A DNA stretch of 38,666 bases from a virus (taxonomy: Duplodnaviria > Heunggongvirae > Uroviricota > Caudoviricetes): the IMG/VR virus record IMGVR_UViG_2609459854_000001, positions 1 to 38,666 of that record; one strand, written 5' to 3'. Below the pieces are notes generated by a model, which did no database searches, was not told the DNA's origin, and saw only the letters and a program-made list of their open reading frames with translations. Below are positions 1 through 37,566 of this stretch, piece by piece. Position 1 is the stretch's first letter, and each line of letters begins with the position of its first letter. Position numbers and translations under genes: made by a program.

Positions 1-960
1 TTATGAAAATAAATATGACTTTTTATCCCATAGGATTTGATCATGATTCATTGTTGGGCACTGAAGATCATTTGCTAAGAAAGAAGGATATTTCGTTGTA
101 TTAAAAATGCTTGAGAAATTAGAGTGCATCGGGCTATTAAATATCTCACTCCCATATTGAGCTACGAGTAAAATATGAATGGCAGCTACTGCATTTATTA
201 CAGCGTTAAGAGATGCCTTTTGCTTGTTTGTTCCGCGATTATGCTTAACTGCATTATATGCGTCATACCAAGTCAAACTAGTAGTTGGTTTAGATTCATC
301 CCAACCACTAAATGGGCACCACTCTTGCAAATATGGATAGTAAACGAGCCTCGTAGAATACCCATCTAATTTCAGCAAACCAAGAGATTTAACATAATCG
401 TTAGTACTAAATCTATTGTTGTTAACAGTGTAACCATTATCTGTAAGAAAATTGTGAAGTAAGTATTCAACCTCAGTACATGCAATAATTAATATTTCTC
501 TGATTTTATTACCAAAACAACTCAAATTACCAGTATCAGGATCTATATAGTTAAATAATTCATTTAATGAATCACATATATTATTAAAAGACCTTACTTC
601 ATCAAGGATTCGTGCCTCCGCTATTTGTTGGTTATATAGTTTTGGTTCTCCTCTATTCATTCTAGGGTAGAATATTCCTGCTTCTGTTTTTTTAGATAAA
701 CTGATAACTATAGGTTGGTATGGACAACGATCAAAGCATTGATTCCAAGAAAAATAACCAATCGCCTTTGCTATTTCATCTGTTTTTATTGCATCAGGAT
801 ATGTTTCATTATAGTTATCCTTTCCTCGTTGCCAATGACTCCATTGGTAGTAGGTTACTTTAGGGAATAAACCAGTGTTAATGTATAAAAAACAATCCTC
901 ACCATTGCGTTGAAAAAAGCCAAATACATTTCCTTTCAATTCAAAAGTATAGCTTTCCAT
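1..960 (-). CDS. hypothetical cargo protein (319 aa), function unknown; candidate accessory/defence gene next to the integrase
   Basis: Complete ORF (ATG at 958-960, TAA at 1-3); visibly AT-rich compared with the phage structural genes; no HExxH, P-loop or other motif I recognise; occupies the position where e14 carries lit. Confidence 0.5.
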   Translation of the reverse strand: MESYTFELKGNVFGFFQRNGEDCFLYINTGLFPKVTYYQWSHWQRGKDNYNETYPDAIKTDEIAKAIGYFSWNQCFDRCPYQPIVISLSKKTEAGIFYPRMNRGEPKLYNQQIAEARILDEVRSFNNICDSLNELFNYIDPDTGNLSCFGNKIREILIIACTEVEYLLHNFLTDNGYTVNNNRFSTNDYVKSLGLLKLDGYSTRLVYYPYLQEWCPFSGWDESKPTTSLTWYDAYNAVKHNRGTNKQKASLNAVINAVAAIHILLVAQYGSEIFNSPMHSNFSSIFNTTKYPSFLANDLQCPTMNHDQILWDKKSYLFS

Positions 961-1316
961 ATTGTTTCCTTTTTTGAGATTTAATGTATATCATGAATCT
1001 ACTAAGCTGTCCAAGACGTTTCGTTAGGATTAAGCTTTCGCTTCATTATCAAGAAATAATAGTAGTACATCGAGGTTGGAGTGTTCTTTAAAATTATGGA
1101 GTTCATCACAATAATCAATGGCTGTTATTGAATTTACTTACGATACGTTTGACTTATAGCCTGATACGACTTAACACTCAAGTTGGAAGTTTAGCTTTTA
1201 TTGATCAACATATTTCTTTGACATATAAACGCGTCCCTTTTTCACTTAAAACGGGCTGCTTGTTTCTTTTTCAAGCATGTTGAGAAATTCAACGGGGCGT
1301 TGAGACGCTTAAATTT

Positions 1317-2447
1317 TCACAATGCTACTTTGCTCCATCCTTTGCCTCGATCATCATGGTAACGATCGGTCTGCTGTTGTGTTTTATGACCAAGTAATTT
1401 TTGCGTATCTAACCCCTGTTCTTTGTACAGGCGTTCAGATAAAGACCTTTGTTCATGGAATGTGGCAGGTGAGCCATCCCCCCAGTCAATCCCTGCTAAA
1501 TCCCTTGCTTTACTAAAATTCATCGTCAATGTATTGGATTTAATCTGTGCACCACGTTCTGCTTGTGAGGTTGAACGGAAAAAATGCACCAAGTATGGGC
1601 TCACTGCGTAGTCACGGCAGCGAGCTACTACATCTCGTAGGCTCCAATTGATAGCATTCAAACGTAGAGAAAGAGGGATAGCGATTTTGCTTCCAGTCTT
1701 TTCCTGAATGACGTGAAGATGATCCTCCCAAATATCACTAAATTTCATTTTGGATATATCTCCCAAACGCTGCCCAGTGACCAAAGCTAGGAGCATGGCA
1801 TTTCCCATATAACGATGAGTGGCGTCTGCGATATCGAATATTTTTTGCCATTCTTCCAGGCTGAGGCGTTGACGGGTAATTTTCCGTCTGGGTTGCTTCG
1901 TCGCAAGAGCAGGGTTATACCCTGGCGGAACTTCGCCATAATGCTGTGCTTCCTTAAATACATCGATCAATACAGACCTTACGACTTGCGCCATTCTCGG
2001 CTGCCCGGCAGCGATATACTCGTCAAGCAATTGTGCTATATCTCTTACATCAACGGCTGAGATCAACTTCATTCCTGCTCGTTCTCTGAGCAAGGATACT
2101 GGTTTAGCTTTTTGCTTATAGGTGTTGAGTCTTATATCACCACTTTTAAGCCTGTCATCCTGGATCGCTTGATAGCGATCTAACCAGGTTGACGTTGTGA
2201 TAGCCTTTCCTTTGCTGGTTGCGATCCTGTCACTGATAGCCAGAATCTGCCGGGTTCTTTGTTCAGCCAGGCGAGTGTTGGCCTCAGTGGCAATAGCGAT
2301 AGCTTCAGCTTCGTTTGTTCCCAAAGCATGGAATTTTCCTGTTACTGGATGCTTATACCGCCAATAGACTTTATTTACCTTCCTACTATAAAGCGGATAT
2401 AAGTTAGGGACTGAAACATTATTCTTACGCGGTCTGGCTGCCATCAC
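1317..2447 (-). CDS. tyrosine site-specific integrase (lambda Int family)
   Basis: 376-aa ORF with lambda-Int-like N-terminal arm and C-terminal catalytic domain; directly followed by an overlapping Xis-like gene. Confidence 0.9.
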   Translation of the reverse strand: MMAARPRKNNVSVPNLYPLYSRKVNKVYWRYKHPVTGKFHALGTNEAEAIAIATEANTRLAEQRTRQILAISDRIATSKGKAITTSTWLDRYQAIQDDRLKSGDIRLNTYKQKAKPVSLLRERAGMKLISAVDVRDIAQLLDEYIAAGQPRMAQVVRSVLIDVFKEAQHYGEVPPGYNPALATKQPRRKITRQRLSLEEWQKIFDIADATHRYMGNAMLLALVTGQRLGDISKMKFSDIWEDHLHVIQEKTGSKIAIPLSLRLNAINWSLRDVVARCRDYAVSPYLVHFFRSTSQAERGAQIKSNTLTMNFSKARDLAGIDWGDGSPATFHEQRSLSERLYKEQGLDTQKLLGHKTQQQTDRYHDDRGKGWSKVAL

Positions 2448-32155: not shown

Positions 32156-32794
32156 ATGCATCGTATAGACACGAAAACCGCGCAGAAGGATAAGTTCGGC
32201 GCGGGTAAGAACGGTTTTACCCGTGGTAACCCCCAGACCGGCACGCCTGCCACCGATCTGGATGATGACTACTTTGACATGTTGCAGGAAGAGCTCTGCA
32301 GCGTGGTGGAGGCATCCGGTGCCAGCCTGGAGAAGGGGCGGCATGACCAGCTGCTTACCGCGCTTCGTGCGCTGCTGTTAAGTCGCAAAAATCCGTTTGG
32401 CGATATCAAATCGGACGGCACGGTGAAAACGGCTCTTCAAAACCTTGGTTTGGGAGAATTATCTCTGGCTGGCACTGCATCGGGTGTCATTGGTCTGAAT
32501 GGGTATGTAACGATTCCGTTAATTATTTCAGGTTCCCGGAGAACACTGATTATTCAGTGGGGGCAGGCGAGATTTGGTGGGTCTGGTGGTGAAGATGCCG
32601 GATATCTTAATGATTTTCCTTTTGCCTTTCCGTCAGCATGTTATGGAATGATAGTTAGTCATGTGGGGCATACACCTTCAGGCGCAGGAATCCTGTCGGC
32701 TTCTGCAATTACATCAAATCAGTTCCGCGGTTTTTCAAGCATAGCGACTGCTGCAAATGCTGTATTAGGTCGTTATATCGCTATAGGGGGTTAA
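32156..32794 (+). CDS. tail fibre protein (constant N-terminal part fused to the currently expressed variable C-terminal cassette)
   Basis: 212 aa; a recombination crossover site lies at codons 94-101 (NLGLGE), so the C-terminal 112 aa is the invertible cassette. Confidence 0.7.
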   Translation: MHRIDTKTAQKDKFGAGKNGFTRGNPQTGTPATDLDDDYFDMLQEELCSVVEASGASLEKGRHDQLLTALRALLLSRKNPFGDIKSDGTVKTALQNLGLGELSLAGTASGVIGLNGYVTIPLIISGSRRTLIIQWGQARFGGSGGEDAGYLNDFPFAFPSACYGMIVSHVGHTPSGAGILSASAITSNQFRGFSSIATAANAVLGRYIAIGG

Positions 32795-32795
32795 T

Positions 32796-33233
32796 ATGTT
32801 TTATAGTCCATCATTAAACATTTTTGTGAATCCTGCGCTTAAGGATGATTACATTAATGCAAATTCATGGCCAGATGATGCTCTGGCTGTCAGTGATGAT
32901 GTTTATAATGAATTTGCAATCAATACGCCCCCATATGACAAAATTCGTGTTGCAGGAAAAAATGGATTACCCACATGGGCACTAATACCTCCACCATCGC
33001 ATGAAGAACTTATTCAACAGGCAGAATCAGAAAGGCAATTATTGCTTAATCAGGCCAACGAATACATGAACAGTAAACAATGGCCCGGTAAAGCCGCTAT
33101 TGGTCGTCTGAAAGACGAGGAACTGGCACTATATAATTTGTGGCTGGATTACCTGGACGCACTGGAACTGGTGGATACCTCCAGTGCTCCAGATATTGAA
33201 TGGCCTACACCTCCGGTAACTCAGGCCAGCTAA
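32796..33233 (+). CDS. tail fibre assembly protein (current orientation)
   Basis: 145 aa directly after the tail fibre; C-terminal ...EWPTPP... is typical of Tfa chaperones. Confidence 0.7.
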   Translation: MFYSPSLNIFVNPALKDDYINANSWPDDALAVSDDVYNEFAINTPPYDKIRVAGKNGLPTWALIPPPSHEELIQQAESERQLLLNQANEYMNSKQWPGKAAIGRLKDEELALYNLWLDYLDALELVDTSSAPDIEWPTPPVTQAS

Positions 33234-33630
33234 TCTCAGGAGCCGTCGAAGTGTCGACGGCTTTTACTTCTTTTTTGTAGTCCATCCAGGCGGATAGTTT
33301 TTCTTTATCTGTACTGCTGATATCACCAAGCATTAATTCCACTCGCCAGTCAGCTGTGACATTATCGGCATGAGCAAGTAACTGCATTCGCTGATTTTCA
33401 GCACGTGCGACATAATCAATCGCCGGAGATTTCAGTACCGGTAAACCATTTTCATCTGACGTGATTAATTTACCCCCTTCCTGCTGTCCGGCAATTAATT
33501 CATTGTATAAGTCTGTACTTATCTCAACAATGTCAGCAGGCATGTCGCTGTTTATACCATCAAAGAAAAAACCATTAGTCGATTTTGAGAAATAAATCAT
33601 AGATATACCTATACACCGATTGCTACCCAA
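33205..33630 (-). CDS. alternative tail fibre assembly protein (inverted orientation)
   Basis: 141 aa on the opposite strand, convergent with the first Tfa; C-terminal ...ISWPELPEV. Confidence 0.65.
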   Translation of the reverse strand: MGSNRCIGISMIYFSKSTNGFFFDGINSDMPADIVEISTDLYNELIAGQQEGGKLITSDENGLPVLKSPAIDYVARAENQRMQLLAHADNVTADWRVELMLGDISSTDKEKLSAWMDYKKEVKAVDTSTAPEISWPELPEV

Positions 33631-33986
33631 AAACAGGACCTTTCATATTTGACAATTTCTCCCTGAGATATACCGCCAACAATTATATAGAACTGTGATT
33701 TGGTGATATCAGAACAGTTCGCAATGCCCATTGCAGATATACCAGCCAACGACGTTGTATGTGGCACAGCCAACAGCGCAAGTGAACGATTTGGGAATGT
33801 TACCGGGTAAGTCACCGTATAGTTTGATGCTCCACTGACAATACCCCACTGAATAATCAGACCTGAAGGGAGTTTTTGAAAACCCGTTGATGAAAGTGAA
33901 CTGGCAAACGCCGCCATATCCGGAATTTGGTTTTGCCCGTTACCTACATTCCGTTTTGCCGCTTCTCCCAAACCAACGTTTATGAA
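33609..33986 (-). CDS. alternative promoterless tail-fibre C-terminal cassette (Sv-prime-like)
   Basis: Minus-strand frame reads ...FINVGLGE... across the crossover site and continues 120 codons; would fuse to the constant fibre N-terminus after inversion. Confidence 0.55.
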   Translation of the reverse strand, partial: FINVGLGEAAKRNVGNGQNQIPDMAAFASSLSSTGFQKLPSGLIIQWGIVSGASNYTVTYPVTFPNRSLALLAVPHTTSLAGISAMGIANCSDITKSQFYIIVGGISQGEIVKYERSCFWVAIGV

Positions 33987-34042
33987 AATGCAGAAATAAC
34001 GAGAAAATGGCATCATTCCTGCTTTTGTCAGAGGGAGCTACC

Positions 34043-34234
34043 ATGCTTATTGGCTATGTTTGCGTATCAACAAATGACCAGAAAATCGATCTACAACGTA
34101 ATGCGTTTAACTGTGCAGGATGCGAGCTGATTTTTGAAGACAAGATAAGCGGTACAAAGTCCGAGAGCCTAGGGCTGACAGTGCTGTTCTTGATGCAAAT
34201 TAAAGGATTTAATAGTGAGTTGCGGCCTTACTAA
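34043..34234 (+). pseudogene. truncated Gin/Hin/Pin-family serine DNA invertase (N-terminal ~50 codons only)
   Basis: MLIGYVCVSTNDQKIDLQRNAFNCAGCELIFEDKISGTK... matches the invertase N-terminus including the catalytic Ser, then diverges and stops; the rest is replaced by the 3' end of the convergent DUF262/DUF1524 gene. Confidence 0.7.
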
Positions 34235-34267: not shown

Positions 34268-36157
34268 TTAATCGTATTTTGGCCATACTTTCAATGCAAT
34301 TTCCCCCAACTTTTTACCTCGCTCCAGTATTTCACTCTCATCCCATTTATCCTTAAGTATAAGTGGTATGTTCAGTCGTAGATTGGTGTGGACGATGAGA
34401 GCATCACGTTTTTTCAGAAATACAGCATTCTGAACGGAACGGTTTACGCTAAGGTTAAGCAAAGTTAGATTTCCCAACGTAGCTATCGCTTGTTGCCGTT
34501 TCCTTACCAGTAGCTGTTCAGGGGTAAGATCGGTTCCAGACAGAACAATTTGGTTCATTACCGTAGCATCTGAATTTGTCACCATATGACCATTTTCGAG
34601 AGGCCAACAGGAATACCAACTTTGAGGCATAAGATGATCGATATCGAGATTAGAAAGATTTGGAACATCAGGCTTTTCTGTCTTCACTTGGCGACAAAGT
34701 TCTCTTTCAAGTTCCGTTAACATTGAGCGCATTTTCGGTGCGTCGAGCCTGCCAGGATAAAGTGGAGCATTGATGCAAGCGTTGAGAAATTCTGAGTCCC
34801 CAGGCCAACGTGAGGCTTCGCCATTTAAGCTATTGAGGATATTACGTAACTCAACACTGGAAATTTCCGTTTTAGACAAGTGTCGCAATACATTCATAAA
34901 TACATTGTTGTAATTCTTTGGCGTCAGGCCACATACGGATCTTCGTACTACGTAGGAGACAAGATCATTATACATGGCTGCTTTCTCATCATCGGCGATG
35001 TTAGCTATCGAAATGAACAAAGCAAGCGGATAGAGTGTCGTCACATCATAGGCTGCGATGCGATGTCTAAAGTGTGAGATGGGGGTTGTGCCAAAACCAC
35101 CAACCAATTCTTTATATTGTGATGCATATTGTTTGAGGCGCTTTACTTGCAGATCTGCTCGTTGTGAAGGCAAGTCCTTACTTACATAATCACGATACTC
35201 ATTGTAAAGGCGAGACAGATCAATTTCACGCTGCCTTTCTGATTGCAATGTCGCATGTACAAGCCACTCCATGCGTGGTTTATTAATACGTCCACGGCGT
35301 TGCTTTTCCGACCAGTATTTATCTTCAAAGATCTTCCACTCATTTTCATATAATTCAATAGCATTAATATTTTCATGCTCAGCGCACATAAAGATATAGT
35401 TGCGAATAAGATCCGTTGCATGAAGTTCCGCTCCTCGCCCATTTAATGTTTCAAAAATTATTTGGGCATCATCTTCAGCTTCGAGAAATATGCTTACCAG
35501 TTTCAGATCCGTCAAGACAGCCTCAATTAGTGCTACAGCATTTTCTTGTGGTGAGTGTTTTTCTATTTTAATCCATTTTATAAAGGCTTCAGTAAAAAAC
35601 CATAATGCCTCTAGTGACGGCGGGTGGTTGAAATGTTTACGTAACGTACCATGTTGCGTGAAGCTATCAGAAAATACATTACGGAGATCGTCAATATTAT
35701 CAACATTAAGACTTTGAATAAAATGAGTTTGATCTCGAAAAGTTGGCCACAGTTTGAAGCATTCTACCTTTTTATTTCTCATCGTTGCTTCGTTTGTATT
35801 TTTCAAGCAAGTCAATACTAACCCTTCCAGTTCAGAAAGGCCTGTAGCACGCAATGATAATCGAATGGATGCCAGAATATATTGAAGAGTGGTTAAACGT
35901 TGCTGGCCGTCAATAATATGTATGGTATCTACACCTAACAAGCTGTTTTTGAGTTGAGGTTCCAGCACCACCGCGCCGAGGAAATGAGGGGTTGGTTTTG
36001 TTCCCGAAAGTCGGCTCTGTGCTTTTTCGAAGATATCCTCCAACAAAGCTGACCATTGGTTTCGTTGCGTCCATACGTAGGCACGTTGATAGAATGGAAC
36101 ACGATATTGTCGTTGATTTTGGAAAATTTGCTGGATGGTTAGCGTTTCGGATTTCAT
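34268..36157 (-). CDS. DUF262/DUF1524 (GmrSD-like) type IV restriction endonuclease
   Basis: 629 aa; N-terminal ...FYQRAYVWT...IIDGQQRLTTL... (DUF262 DGQQR motif) and C-terminal ...DIDHLMPQSW...GNLTLLNLSVNRS... (DUF1524 His-Me finger); AT-rich; AGGTAA RBS. Confidence 0.8.
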   Translation of the reverse strand: MKSETLTIQQIFQNQRQYRVPFYQRAYVWTQRNQWSALLEDIFEKAQSRLSGTKPTPHFLGAVVLEPQLKNSLLGVDTIHIIDGQQRLTTLQYILASIRLSLRATGLSELEGLVLTCLKNTNEATMRNKKVECFKLWPTFRDQTHFIQSLNVDNIDDLRNVFSDSFTQHGTLRKHFNHPPSLEALWFFTEAFIKWIKIEKHSPQENAVALIEAVLTDLKLVSIFLEAEDDAQIIFETLNGRGAELHATDLIRNYIFMCAEHENINAIELYENEWKIFEDKYWSEKQRRGRINKPRMEWLVHATLQSERQREIDLSRLYNEYRDYVSKDLPSQRADLQVKRLKQYASQYKELVGGFGTTPISHFRHRIAAYDVTTLYPLALFISIANIADDEKAAMYNDLVSYVVRRSVCGLTPKNYNNVFMNVLRHLSKTEISSVELRNILNSLNGEASRWPGDSEFLNACINAPLYPGRLDAPKMRSMLTELERELCRQVKTEKPDVPNLSNLDIDHLMPQSWYSCWPLENGHMVTNSDATVMNQIVLSGTDLTPEQLLVRKRQQAIATLGNLTLLNLSVNRSVQNAVFLKKRDALIVHTNLRLNIPLILKDKWDESEILERGKKLGEIALKVWPKYD

Positions 36158-36439: not shown

Positions 36440-36975
36440 AGTTAAATCCACATTGGTATGAATAACATAGAATATGAATTAGTGTTTCAGAATTGCTTCA
36501 GCCATCACTTTTTAATACGTTCAATTTGAATGTTTATTTCCGAAACAATTTTTTCAGGTTTCAGTCCCTCGTTAGATTGCACAAAATCTCTAATTTGCAT
36601 CATTCGATGTGCACAAATTTGTAATTCGCTATAAACACTTAGCTCGTCAGATTCATTTTGAGATTGTTCACCTGTTTAAAATTCTACATAAGTATGTGGC
36701 GGATTGTGATAAACACGAGAAATCGGGGTTGGCCACCATTCCTCACCGGTCACTACGTCCGCATCGAATAGTACAGTTTTGTCAATTTCCATTAATTTCT
36801 GGATAAGAACAGAAGTTTTCAAGCGAACCTCCATTTTGCCATAAAGTGGTTATCAAAACGCTACGTAAACTATACAAAATCAGCGAGTTATGGTGAAGGT
36901 AAAAAAACAAGTTTAGATGTTCGTTAAGTATAAAATTGTTTTAATTCAATTGGATATAATAATTTTCTAAATCTA

Positions 36976-37140
36976 ATGTTACGCCATATGGGTTGGACTG
37001 AAGCGGCTGACCTGATTGTTAAAGGTATGGAAGGCGCAATCAATGCGAAGACCGTAACCTATGACTTCGAGCGTCTGATGGAAGGCGCTAAACTGCTGAA
37101 ATGTTCAGAATTTGGTGATGCGATCATCAAGAACATGTAA
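36976..37140 (+). pseudogene. icdC: orphan 3' fragment of isocitrate dehydrogenase gene (icdC-like), marking the prophage right attachment site
   Basis: Encodes [54 protein letters not shown], recognisable as the Icd C-terminus, with no upstream icd body; 165 nt, the length replaced on e14 integration. Confidence 0.75.
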
Positions 37141-37162
37141 TCACTACATGTGTTTAATATTG

Positions 37163-37242: not shown

Positions 37243-37566
37243 TTACTTGAGCCCATATGGGCATATTTTTATAATGCAACTATTATGCAAACATTTATTT
37301 GTTATTTTGCTTTCTCCTGGAGGACACTCTTGACTGCTTTTGAGTAGACTCCATAAATCCTTGTTGAATGGTGCGATGTTATAAATAGTAATAGGATATT
37401 CTTTATCTTTAAGGATAATTCCAGATTTAACCGGTGTAAATATACTGCCAGGAGGGAGAAATATAGTAGATTGATACCAGATGATCATTTTCATATTACC
37501 CCATATGGCTGAAAAAGATATGCCGCATGAAGGTTGAATTATCGTGTCAATTACTATCCACTTCAT
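37243..37566 (-). CDS. iraM: IraM-like anti-adaptor protein (host gene)
   Basis: 107 aa, [32 protein letters not shown]...; matches my recollection of E. coli IraM, which lies just beyond icdC in K-12. Confidence 0.55.

What the first reader, a model, noticed from the sequence alone, without database searches (positions are those of the whole stretch)
1..960. Unrecognisable AT-rich cargo gene at the integrase-proximal locus where e14 carries lit
The 319-aa protein on the minus strand sits between the integrase and the window edge, in the slot where E. coli K-12 e14 carries the abortive-infection protease Lit. It is not Lit (no HExxH), is much more AT-rich than the phage backbone, and has no motif I can assign. 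Integrase-adjacent cargo slots are well-known sites for phage-encoded defence and exclusion genes, so this is a candidate for an uncharacterised single-gene system.
Basis: partly seen in the sequence, partly recalled or inferred. Interest (0 to 1): 0.65.

Follow-up and report, generated by a model that had tools for sequence, protein, structure and literature searches.

The report
Uncharacterised HEPN-like prophage cargo gene
A real, AT-rich, horizontally acquired gene sits beside the integrase of an e14-like E. coli prophage, in the slot where K-12 carries Lit; it belongs to a large unnamed protein family with an RNase-type (HEPN-like) fold that hops between the defence-gene slots of many prophages, so it is a good but untested candidate for a single-gene anti-phage system.

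Summary
Window 1-960 (minus strand) is a complete 319-aa gene with GC 0.33 against 0.52 for the prophage backbone. It lies between intE and the icd attachment site, the slot where K-12 e14 carries Lit. It is unrelated to Lit and matches no Pfam, NCBIfam or PADLOC model.

The gene is always solitary, with different neighbours each time. It recurs in variable or defence slots of P2-like phages and other prophages, and in defence islands. In E. coli the icd-intE slot is hypervariable (Lit, DarTG, Kiwa and others).

Best reading: a stand-alone sensor-plus-HEPN-like-nuclease abortive-infection protein, analogous to Tha and HepS. Function is inferred, not shown. Interest is moderate.

The parts
1..960 (-). 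Complete CDS, 319 aa (37 kDa, pI 5.9), stop codon at 1-3; RefSeq WP_050489393.1, 'hypothetical protein'
685..960 (-). N-terminal variable module (aa 1-92): four beta-strands plus helices. It keeps only ~21% identity among distant family members and is replaced by other sequence in most superfamily relatives. Proposed sensor/specificity module (inference).
151..615 (-). HEPN-like helical core (aa 116-270): helix 1 at 116-138, helix 2 at 151-174, insert at 175-229, helix 3 at 230-240, helix 4 at 251-269. About 52% identity among distant members; pLDDT mostly above 93.
466..501 (-). Helix-2 segment R154-E-I-L-I-I-A-C-T-E163-V-E165. E163 is invariant and R154 and E165 are >=96% conserved across 121 divergent members. 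This corresponds to the conserved acidic residue of HEPN helix 2.
235..258 (-). [quoted passage not shown] Y235, K239 and H240 are invariant; N236 and R242 are >=95% conserved. It is in register with the canonical HEPN R-N-x-x-x-H, but Tyr replaces Arg.
4..135 (-). C-terminal beta-rich tail (aa 276-319), fast-evolving (~24% identity among distant members)
967..971 (-). Shine-Dalgarno AAGGA, 6 nt upstream of the ATG
   Evidence: read from the sequence
985..1014 (-). Sigma-70-like promoter candidate: TTGGAC (1009-1014), 18-nt spacer, TG-n-TATACA (985-993). The cTTGGaCA...TATACATT element is shared with the upstream regions of the Yersinia and Serratia orthologues, which sit in different slots.
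   Evidence: Consensus match only; the automatic scan did not list it.
961..1283 (.). Cargo-specific AT-rich intergenic DNA (GC 0.34). Homology to other e14-like prophages begins only at ~1248-1284, just after the intE stop codon.
1317..2444 (-). intE, the e14-type tyrosine integrase. It is the conserved anchor that defines the slot. xisE follows at 2425-2670.

Best explanation
The gene is a horizontally acquired, self-contained prophage 'moron'. It is probably expressed from its own promoter in the lysogen.

Its product has two parts. One is a conserved HEPN-like four-helix catalytic core (aa ~93-275). The other is a pair of fast-evolving N- and C-terminal segments.

The most likely function is single-protein abortive-infection or superinfection immunity. 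In this model the variable module keeps the enzyme silent until it senses a cue from an infecting phage. By analogy with Tha and HepS, that cue would probably be a phage protein made during replication. The core, probably acting as a dimer, would then cleave RNA without a metal ion. H240 would act as the general base. K239, R242 and R154 would stabilise the transition state, assisted by N236, Y235 and E163. Translation stops and the infection aborts.

Shown here: the gene is real, it is mobile cargo in variable or defence slots, it has no partner gene, the model has a HEPN-like fold, and a polar/charged residue cluster is invariant at the canonical HEPN active-site position.

Inferred: enzymatic activity, RNA as the substrate, the sensing role of the termini, and the defence phenotype.

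My sub-claim estimates: real mobile cargo gene 0.95; enzyme 0.8; HEPN-like fold 0.75; anti-phage role 0.6-0.65; RNase 0.45-0.5.

For: Published HEPN landmarks (PMC3710099). [quoted passage not shown] N and H are in register with R-N-x-x-x-H. The Parep1/8 family is a precedent for keeping the H but not the R.

Conservation. E163, Y235, K239 and H240 are invariant in 121 sequences at ~30% identity. R154, E165, N236 and R242 are >=95% conserved.

Modularity. Core identity is 52%, against 21-24% for the termini. 105 of the top 150 superfamily hits match only from profile position 27 onward, most of them from about position 60-126.

Context. The gene is solitary, with different neighbours each time. 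It sits in:
- the e14 icd-intE slot next to Kiwa;
- the P2 S/V (Orf30) slot;
- beside an integrase and an OLD nuclease in Yersinia;
- the portal-proximal P2 hotspot;
- the tail-fibre end of P2-like and lambdoid prophages;
- islands with CRISPR I-F, SNF2/methylase, Fic, HigB and DuOB-DUF488-DUF4326.

The e14 slot carries Lit, DarTG and other defence cargo elsewhere.

Distribution is sparse and patchy across phyla.

Analogues. Tha-1 (301 aa, unknown N-terminus + HEPN, beside int/xis, tail-activated RNase; PMC11087260) and HepS (solo HEPN anticodon nuclease of Gifsy-1; PMC13043305).
Against: The canonical Rx4-6H motif is absent from the window protein and is not conserved in the family.

There is no sequence-profile link to any HEPN family. 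Pfam finds nothing even at E <= 10 for all 67 alignment members. hhalign against Tha-1 gives probability 0.04%. The profile search against PDB sequences finds nothing.

I could not inspect coordinates, so the spatial clustering of the conserved residues and the dimer geometry are unverified.

There is no experimental evidence of defence, toxicity or RNase activity for any family member, and PADLOC does not know the family.

Guilt by association in hotspots is imperfect, because hotspots also carry counter-defence and virulence cargo.
Confidence: 0.5

Rival explanations
1. It is a defence or conflict effector built on the same HEPN-like scaffold, but it is not an RNase. The invariant E/Y/K/H/R cluster would act on DNA, a nucleotide or cofactor, or a protein. 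Alternatively it binds a ligand and signals.
For: The defining Rx4-6H RNase motif is missing. The conserved set is unusual for HEPN: Tyr in the Arg position, Lys next to His, Arg after His. No sequence link to any RNase family was found.
Against: The motif lies exactly where HEPN RNase sites lie, with N and H in register and a helix-2 Glu. HEPN families with alternative residues are still predicted to be RNases. Glu/His plus Lys/Arg/Tyr is typical chemistry for metal-independent RNA cleavage (general knowledge).
Confidence: 0.2
2. It is not host immunity but a phage-benefit factor: a counter-defence protein, a weapon against competing mobile elements or satellites, or an addiction-type toxin that stabilises the prophage.
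For: Phage hotspots also carry non-defence cargo. The gene stays intact in degraded prophages, as an addictive or selfish gene might.
Against: Homologues also sit in non-phage chromosomal islands beside CRISPR-Cas, restriction-like modules and toxin-antitoxin genes, and on plasmids of several phyla. At 319 aa, with an enzyme-like core and transcription opposite to the phage operons, it looks like lysogen-expressed immunity morons such as Tha. No antitoxin-like partner is present in any context.
Confidence: 0.12
3. It is an accessory (third) component of the adjacent Kiwa system.
For: All four E. coli genomes that carry the gene have kwaA-kwaB immediately next to it.
Against: The gene converges on kwaB and is separated from it by a 19-bp-stem hairpin. 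It remains intact and identical where kwaB is split and where kwaA appears frameshifted. None of the other contexts with Pfam-annotated neighbours contains a KwaB/DUF4868 gene. The four E. coli copies are ~100% identical, so they amount to one acquisition event and not independent co-occurrence.
Confidence: 0.03
4. It is ordinary lysogenic-conversion or neutral cargo with no role in phage-host conflict, for example a metabolic or regulatory enzyme hitch-hiking in prophage ends.
For: No function has been shown for any member, and all are annotated 'hypothetical'.
Against: The gene has been captured repeatedly and independently in at least five distinct prophage variable slots and in defence islands. 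Distribution is patchy (186 of ~185,600 species representatives by pattern scan). The sensor-like termini evolve fast. The fold is that of a conflict-system toxin.
Confidence: 0.08

Closest known systems
Tha-1/Tha-2 (tail-activated HEPN anti-phage proteins of Staphylococcus aureus prophages; PMC11087260)
HepS (solo HEPN anticodon nuclease of Salmonella prophage Gifsy-1; PMC13043305)
   Same: A prophage-encoded single HEPN protein that both senses infection and acts as the effector, located in an accessory-gene slot.
HEPN superfamily variants lacking the canonical motif (Parep1/8, AbiV, AF0298-type; PMC3710099)
   Different: The Y-N-x-x-K-H-x-R constellation is not described there. No profile-level relationship to those families was detected.
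HepT toxins of HEPN-MNT (type VII) toxin-antitoxin pairs
   Different: There is no MNT antitoxin or any conserved neighbour. This protein is more than twice as long, with extra modules and a 55-residue insert. The R-x4-H-x-Y motif appears here as Y-x4-H-x-R.
Lit (cell-death peptidase of K-12 e14)
   Same: It occupies the same icd-intE cargo slot of an e14-type prophage. It is a single-gene abortive-infection paradigm.
   Different: No sequence similarity and no HExxH. Lit is a zinc metalloprotease that cleaves EF-Tu (general knowledge).
P2 Orf30
   Same: Homologues of this gene occupy exactly the P2 S-V slot, in the same opposite-strand orientation as the non-essential Orf30.
   Different: Unrelated protein (hhalign probability 0.2%).

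Membership tests
HEPN superfamily | Four-helix up-down bundle made of two alpha-hairpins | tested here: met
HEPN superfamily | Conserved Rx4-6H motif | tested here: not met
   The window protein has no R-x(4-6)-H anywhere. Only 14/67 and 20/121 family members have a His 4-6 residues after R242, so the motif is not a conserved family feature. The position of the canonical Arg is an invariant Tyr (Y235).
HEPN superfamily | Catalytic His at the end of helix 3 / start of the loop to helix 4, with a polar residue (N/D/H) right after the Arg position | tested here: met
   H240 is invariant and N236 is in 116/121 members. The motif sits at the C-terminal end of helix 230-240, followed by a loop and helix 251-269. 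The criterion is taken from PMC3710099.
HEPN superfamily | Second conserved acidic residue in helix 2 (typically E-x3-[KR]) | tested here: met
   E163 is invariant and E165 is 116/121, both in helix 151-174. The exact E-x3-[KR] spacing is not conserved.
HEPN superfamily | Variable insert between helices 2 and 3 | tested here: met
   Residues 175-229 (short helices plus a beta-element) lie between helix 151-174 and helix 230-240.
HEPN superfamily | Profile-level sequence match to a recognised HEPN family | tested here: not met
   No Pfam HEPN family at E <= 10 in any of the 67 members. Nothing from the profile search against PDB sequences. No hhalign match to Tha-1. HHpred against full PDB/Pfam profile libraries was not available.
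HEPN superfamily | Metal-independent endoribonuclease activity from a composite dimer active site | not testable with these tools
   This needs biochemistry, or at least a multimer model with coordinates.
Lit / peptidase U49 | HExxH zinc-metalloprotease motif and sequence similarity to Lit | tested here: not met
   No HExxH. BLASTP against K-12 Lit gives E = 0.2.
Kiwa (KwaA/KwaB) | Match to KwaA or KwaB profiles, or obligate co-occurrence with them | tested here: not met
   PADLOC finds nothing for this protein, while its two neighbours match KwaA (4e-59) and KwaB (1e-121). There is no Kiwa next to homologues elsewhere.
Tha (tail-activated HEPN) | Homology to Tha-1/Tha-2 | tested here: not met
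   hhalign of the 121-sequence family profile against 80alpha gp03 gives probability 0.04%.
Tha (tail-activated HEPN) | Activation by a phage tail protein | not testable with these tools
   This requires escape-mutant mapping or co-expression.
HEPN-MNT (HepT/MntA) toxin-antitoxin | Adjacent MNT nucleotidyltransferase antitoxin gene | tested here: not met
   No nucleotidyltransferase or any recurrent neighbour appears in the contexts examined.
P2 Orf30 | Sequence homology to P2 Orf30 | tested here: not met
   hhalign probability 0.2%. Only the slot is shared.

The most novel reading that the evidence does not exclude
This is the founding, still unnamed member of a widespread single-protein anti-phage family (more than 3,000 clusters at 50% identity, several phyla). 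Its HEPN-type nuclease core uses a rewired catalytic centre, Y-N-x-x-K-H-x-R plus a helix-2 Glu, in place of Rx4-6H. Its interchangeable terminal modules set which phage cue triggers it. The family shuttles between the defence hotspots of P2-like, e14-like and lambdoid prophages and chromosomal islands.
Probability: 0.4. Interest if true: 0.65.

Novelty: new variant of a known kind. Interest (0 to 1): 0.5.

Why it matters
If the prediction holds, a family that current defence-annotation tools do not see (nothing in PADLOC, Pfam or NCBIfam) would join the catalogue of prophage-encoded immunity.

It would also show that HEPN nucleases can work with a rearranged catalytic centre, which motif-based HEPN searches (Rx4-6H) miss by design.

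It would document the e14 icd-intE slot and the P2 S/V (Orf30) slot as defence hotspots that exchange cargo with each other.

The family's domain layout, a conserved core with swappable termini, makes it a tractable model for how single-protein sensors diversify their trigger specificity.

If it does not hold, this remains one of many hypothetical moron genes.

Tried and rejected
- Lit or a metalloprotease: rejected. No HExxH and no similarity.
- Known defence families: PADLOC empty for this protein and for divergent relatives.
- Pfam and NCBIfam: empty. The only NCBIfam line (E = 0.15, an L-ribulose-5-phosphate 3-epimerase model) is noise.
- Weak Pfam PDDEXK_13 hits in 3 of 67 members (best E 0.0017) and DUF2018 in 5 of 67. 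They are inconsistent and not supported by the fold or the conserved residues, so I rejected them.
- PDB sequence search with the single protein and with the profile: nothing.
- Foldseek against the PDB: nothing significant. The afdb50 library was unavailable. BFVD gave only one uncharacterised 153-aa fragment.
- Homology to P2 Orf30 (same slot): rejected.
- Homology to Tha-1: rejected.
- Third Kiwa component: rejected on orientation, the hairpin, and absence of Kiwa in other contexts.
- Antitoxin or partner gene: none. The small ORFs in 961-1316 are not conserved.
- Membrane protein: the only hydrophobic stretch (KD19 1.96, starting at aa 249) is the buried last helix of the bundle.
- Structured RNAs in the window: no Rfam hits.
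- Literature: the accession WP_050489393 and HEPN/prophage/hotspot term searches found no paper that names this family.
- Model coordinates are not exposed by the tools, so I could not check active-site geometry.

Full report
**1. Observation**

Window 1-960 holds one complete minus-strand ORF of 319 aa, with ATG at 958-960 and the stop codon at 1-3. It is preceded by an AAGGA ribosome-binding site at 967-971.

Its GC content is 0.329 (GC3 0.248). intE is 0.454 and the phage backbone 0.52. A 960-nt ORF in DNA this AT-rich is not a chance feature. The full length and the N-terminus are conserved in hundreds of homologues.

The first 2,500 bases of the window are 100% identical to E. coli CFSAN061769, where the gene is annotated as hypothetical protein WP_050489393.1. 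The gene order there is icd - kwaA - kwaB - this gene - intE - xisE. K-12 e14 has icd - ymfD - ymfE - lit - intE - xisE. So the gene does sit in the e14 integrase-proximal cargo slot.

It is not Lit: there is no HExxH and BLASTP gives E = 0.2.

The window as a whole is an intact-looking e14-type prophage of about 39 kb.

**2. What the protein is**

Pfam, NCBIfam and PADLOC give nothing. The only profile hit is phrog_19461, of unknown function, covering aa 127-273.

A word-indexed search found 625 homologues of about 316-320 aa. All are 'hypothetical' and none carries a Pfam domain. An exhaustive HMM search found 3,024 clusters at 50% identity with E <= 1e-3, and 874 with E <= 1e-30. The conserved core maps to profile positions ~90-310. 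In 105 of the top 150 hits the N-terminus is not matched.

Among distant members the helical core keeps 52% identity. Residues 1-92 keep 21% and residues 276-319 keep 24%.

Across 121 divergent sequences the invariant residues are P141, E163, W220, Y235, K239 and H240. R154, E165, N236, R242, R100 and R103 are conserved in 93-98% of members. H262 is conserved only within the close subfamily.

**3. Fold**

AlphaFold2 with a 67-sequence alignment gives mean pLDDT 90.6 and pTM 0.90. The model has:
- an N-terminal beta/alpha module;
- helices at 116-138, 151-174, 230-240 and 251-269, with an insert at 175-229;
- C-terminal beta-strands.

Foldseek against the PDB gives nothing significant, though HEPN toxins recur among the weak hits. 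BFVD gives one uncharacterised fragment.

**4. Testing HEPN membership against published criteria**

The criteria come from the HEPN superfamily survey (PMC3710099).

- Motif position. [quoted passage not shown] Here Y235-N-A-V-K-H240-N-R242 occupies exactly that place.
- Polar residue. The residue after the Arg is usually N, D or H. Here it is N236, with H240 four residues further on. This is in register with R-N-x-x-x-H, but the Arg position is an invariant Tyr.
- Acidic residue. A conserved acidic residue lies in helix 2. Here that is invariant E163.
- Insert. Inserts between helices 2 and 3 are typical. Here the insert spans 175-229.
- Non-canonical families. Families without the canonical motif are described. 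Parep1/8 keeps the His but not the Arg and has other conserved basic residues. Here the candidates are K239, R242 and R154.

Against membership: the strict Rx4-6H motif fails, and I found no profile-level link to any HEPN family.

I therefore call this a HEPN-like domain with a variant catalytic constellation, at about 0.75 confidence for the fold. It is not a demonstrated member of any named HEPN family.

**5. Genomic behaviour**

The gene is always solitary and its neighbours differ each time:

| Context | Neighbours / position |
|---|---|
| Four E. coli genomes | e14 slot, next to Kiwa |
| Citrobacter, E. coli, Pantoea and 5 IMG/VR contigs | between P2 gpV and gpS, opposite strand (the slot of non-essential P2 Orf30, which is unrelated) |
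| Yersinia ruckeri and one IMG/VR contig | next to a P2-type integrase; in Yersinia also next to an OLD-family nuclease |
| Salmonella phage SEN8 and 10 IMG/VR contigs | next to the portal gene, the classic old/tin hotspot |
| Serratia | next to P2-like tail-fibre genes |
| Citrobacter farmeri | tail-fibre end of an icd-integrated lambdoid prophage, beside SRAP, T5orf172 and umuDC |
| Acinetobacter | island with Fic, beside CRISPR-Cas I-F or an SNF2/DUF4391/methylase module |
| Pseudomonas | next to DuOB-DUF488-DUF4326 and HigB |

The three closest orthologues share a promoter-like element (cTTGGaCA - N17-18 - TATACATT) even though they sit in different slots. This suggests the gene moves together with its own promoter.

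It converges on kwaB and is separated from it by a 19-bp-stem hairpin. It stays intact and identical where kwaB is split, where the integrase is truncated, or where kwaA appears frameshifted. It is therefore not part of Kiwa.

**6. The slot**

Homology between this prophage and other e14-like prophages starts only at window ~1248-1284, directly after the intE stop codon. In other strains the icd-intE interval carries:
- Lit (K-12);
- DarT + macro domain (DarTG);
- DuOB-DUF488-DUF4326;
- a TrlF-family AAA-like ATPase plus a hypothetical protein;
- an Sll1717-family P-loop ATPase;
- an AAA ATPase plus a hypothetical protein.

The gene is in 4 of 5,426 complete E. coli genomes, against 488 with intE. 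The P2-slot paralogue is in 1 genome.

Relatives occur on plasmids of Rhizobium, Bacteroides, Chryseobacterium and Klebsiella. They also occur in 186 species-representative genomes from at least six phyla. This is a sparse, patchy distribution of the kind produced by horizontal transfer.

Published work describes the P2 hotspots and reports that most unannotated hotspot loci tested were functional defences. Six of eight randomly chosen loci protected against phages, though these were in P4 satellites.

**7. Mechanism proposed**

The shown elements are the fold, the invariant polar cluster at the HEPN active-site position, the modular conservation pattern, the absence of a partner gene, and the hotspot context.

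The inferred model has four parts:
- The protein is made in the lysogen from its own promoter.
- It is held inactive.
- It is switched on when its variable module detects a cue from an infecting phage, by analogy with Tha (tail protein) and HepS (protein J).
- It then cleaves RNA without a metal ion. H240 would be the general base. K239, R242 and R154 would stabilise the transition state. E163, N236 and Y235 would assist. This follows the chemistry proposed for HEPN domains.

Overall confidence in the whole chain is about 0.5.

**8. Rivals**

- The same scaffold with a different substrate or chemistry (0.2).
- A phage-benefit, counter-defence or addiction factor (0.12).
- Neutral or other lysogenic-conversion cargo (0.08).
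- A Kiwa accessory component (0.03).

**9. Novelty and score**

No paper, Pfam family or defence-system model that I could reach names this family.

The kind is well known: a single-protein HEPN-type abortive-infection gene in a prophage hotspot. The family and its Tyr-for-Arg catalytic motif are not. I rate it a new variant of a known kind.

Interest is 0.5. It is a well-supported and tractable candidate, but there is no functional evidence, and it belongs to a class of finding that is now common.

Noticed in passing
L001 4176-5837 (just outside the window, 164-1825 bp beyond window position 1): A Kiwa system occupies the rest of the icd-intE slot. KwaB is full length (PADLOC E = 1e-121). kwaA appears frameshifted in strain CFSAN061769 (61-aa and 126-aa ORFs, the latter matching only profile positions 80-204 of 205). 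In strain OkiPb01685 the gene in the kwaA position is an intact 206-aa ORF. In strain AHM8C212RI kwaB is split.
   Followed up: partly
window 34268-36157 (-): The cargo gene at the other end of the prophage encodes a 629-aa GmrSD-family type IV restriction enzyme (GmrSD_N 1e-33, GmrSD_C 4e-19; GC 0.41). It sits where K-12 e14 carries McrA, so both prophage ends hold defence-type cargo.
   Followed up: partly
window 32436-33986: This 1.55-kb tail-fibre / tail-fibre-assembly segment is inverted in the window relative to the otherwise ~99.8-100% identical CFSAN061769 record. It is the e14-type invertible region, yet the adjacent recombinase gene (about window 34040-34190) is annotated as a truncated pseudogene.
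   Followed up: no
L012 128-2142; L050-L054, L056, L057: In the SEN8-like subfamily, which sits in the portal-proximal P2 hotspot, the family member is consistently followed by a ~319-aa putative HNH endonuclease gene on the opposite strand (7 IMG/VR loci plus phage SEN8). This could be a two-gene variant of the system. The window gene has no such partner.
   Followed up: partly
L019 3046-4729 and L015 6097-7916: The same three-gene cassette (dual-OB protein, DUF488, DUF4326/mSLOG) fills the e14 icd-intE slot in E. coli SC487 and lies directly beside the Pseudomonas homologue of the window gene. It looks like a mobile candidate conflict system that shares hotspots with this family.
   Followed up: no
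window 808-835 (-): The strongest sigma-70 consensus match in the region (TTGGCA - 16 nt - TATAAT, 11 of 12) lies inside the coding sequence, about 125 nt downstream of the ATG. It may be a chance match in AT-rich DNA or an internal promoter.
   Followed up: no
L001 5837-5882 (119-164 bp beyond window position 1): A 19-bp-stem hairpin lies between the convergent stop codons of kwaB and the 319-aa gene. It is probably a bidirectional terminator.
   Followed up: no
window about 36975-37145: A duplicated 3' fragment of icd is annotated as a pseudogene in the matching record. It marks the right attachment site of the prophage, followed by iraM (37243-37566). The window has an 8-bp indel relative to the CFSAN061769 record somewhere between 36157 and 37243.
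   Followed up: partly
L004 2694-3509; L024 2875-3429: The P2-like prophages that carry a family member in the S/V slot also carry a different small cargo gene in the Z/fun slot between the tail-fibre assembly and sheath genes. In Citrobacter this is a 271-aa protein with a weak Trypsin_2 hit. So several hotspots are filled in the same phage.
   Followed up: no
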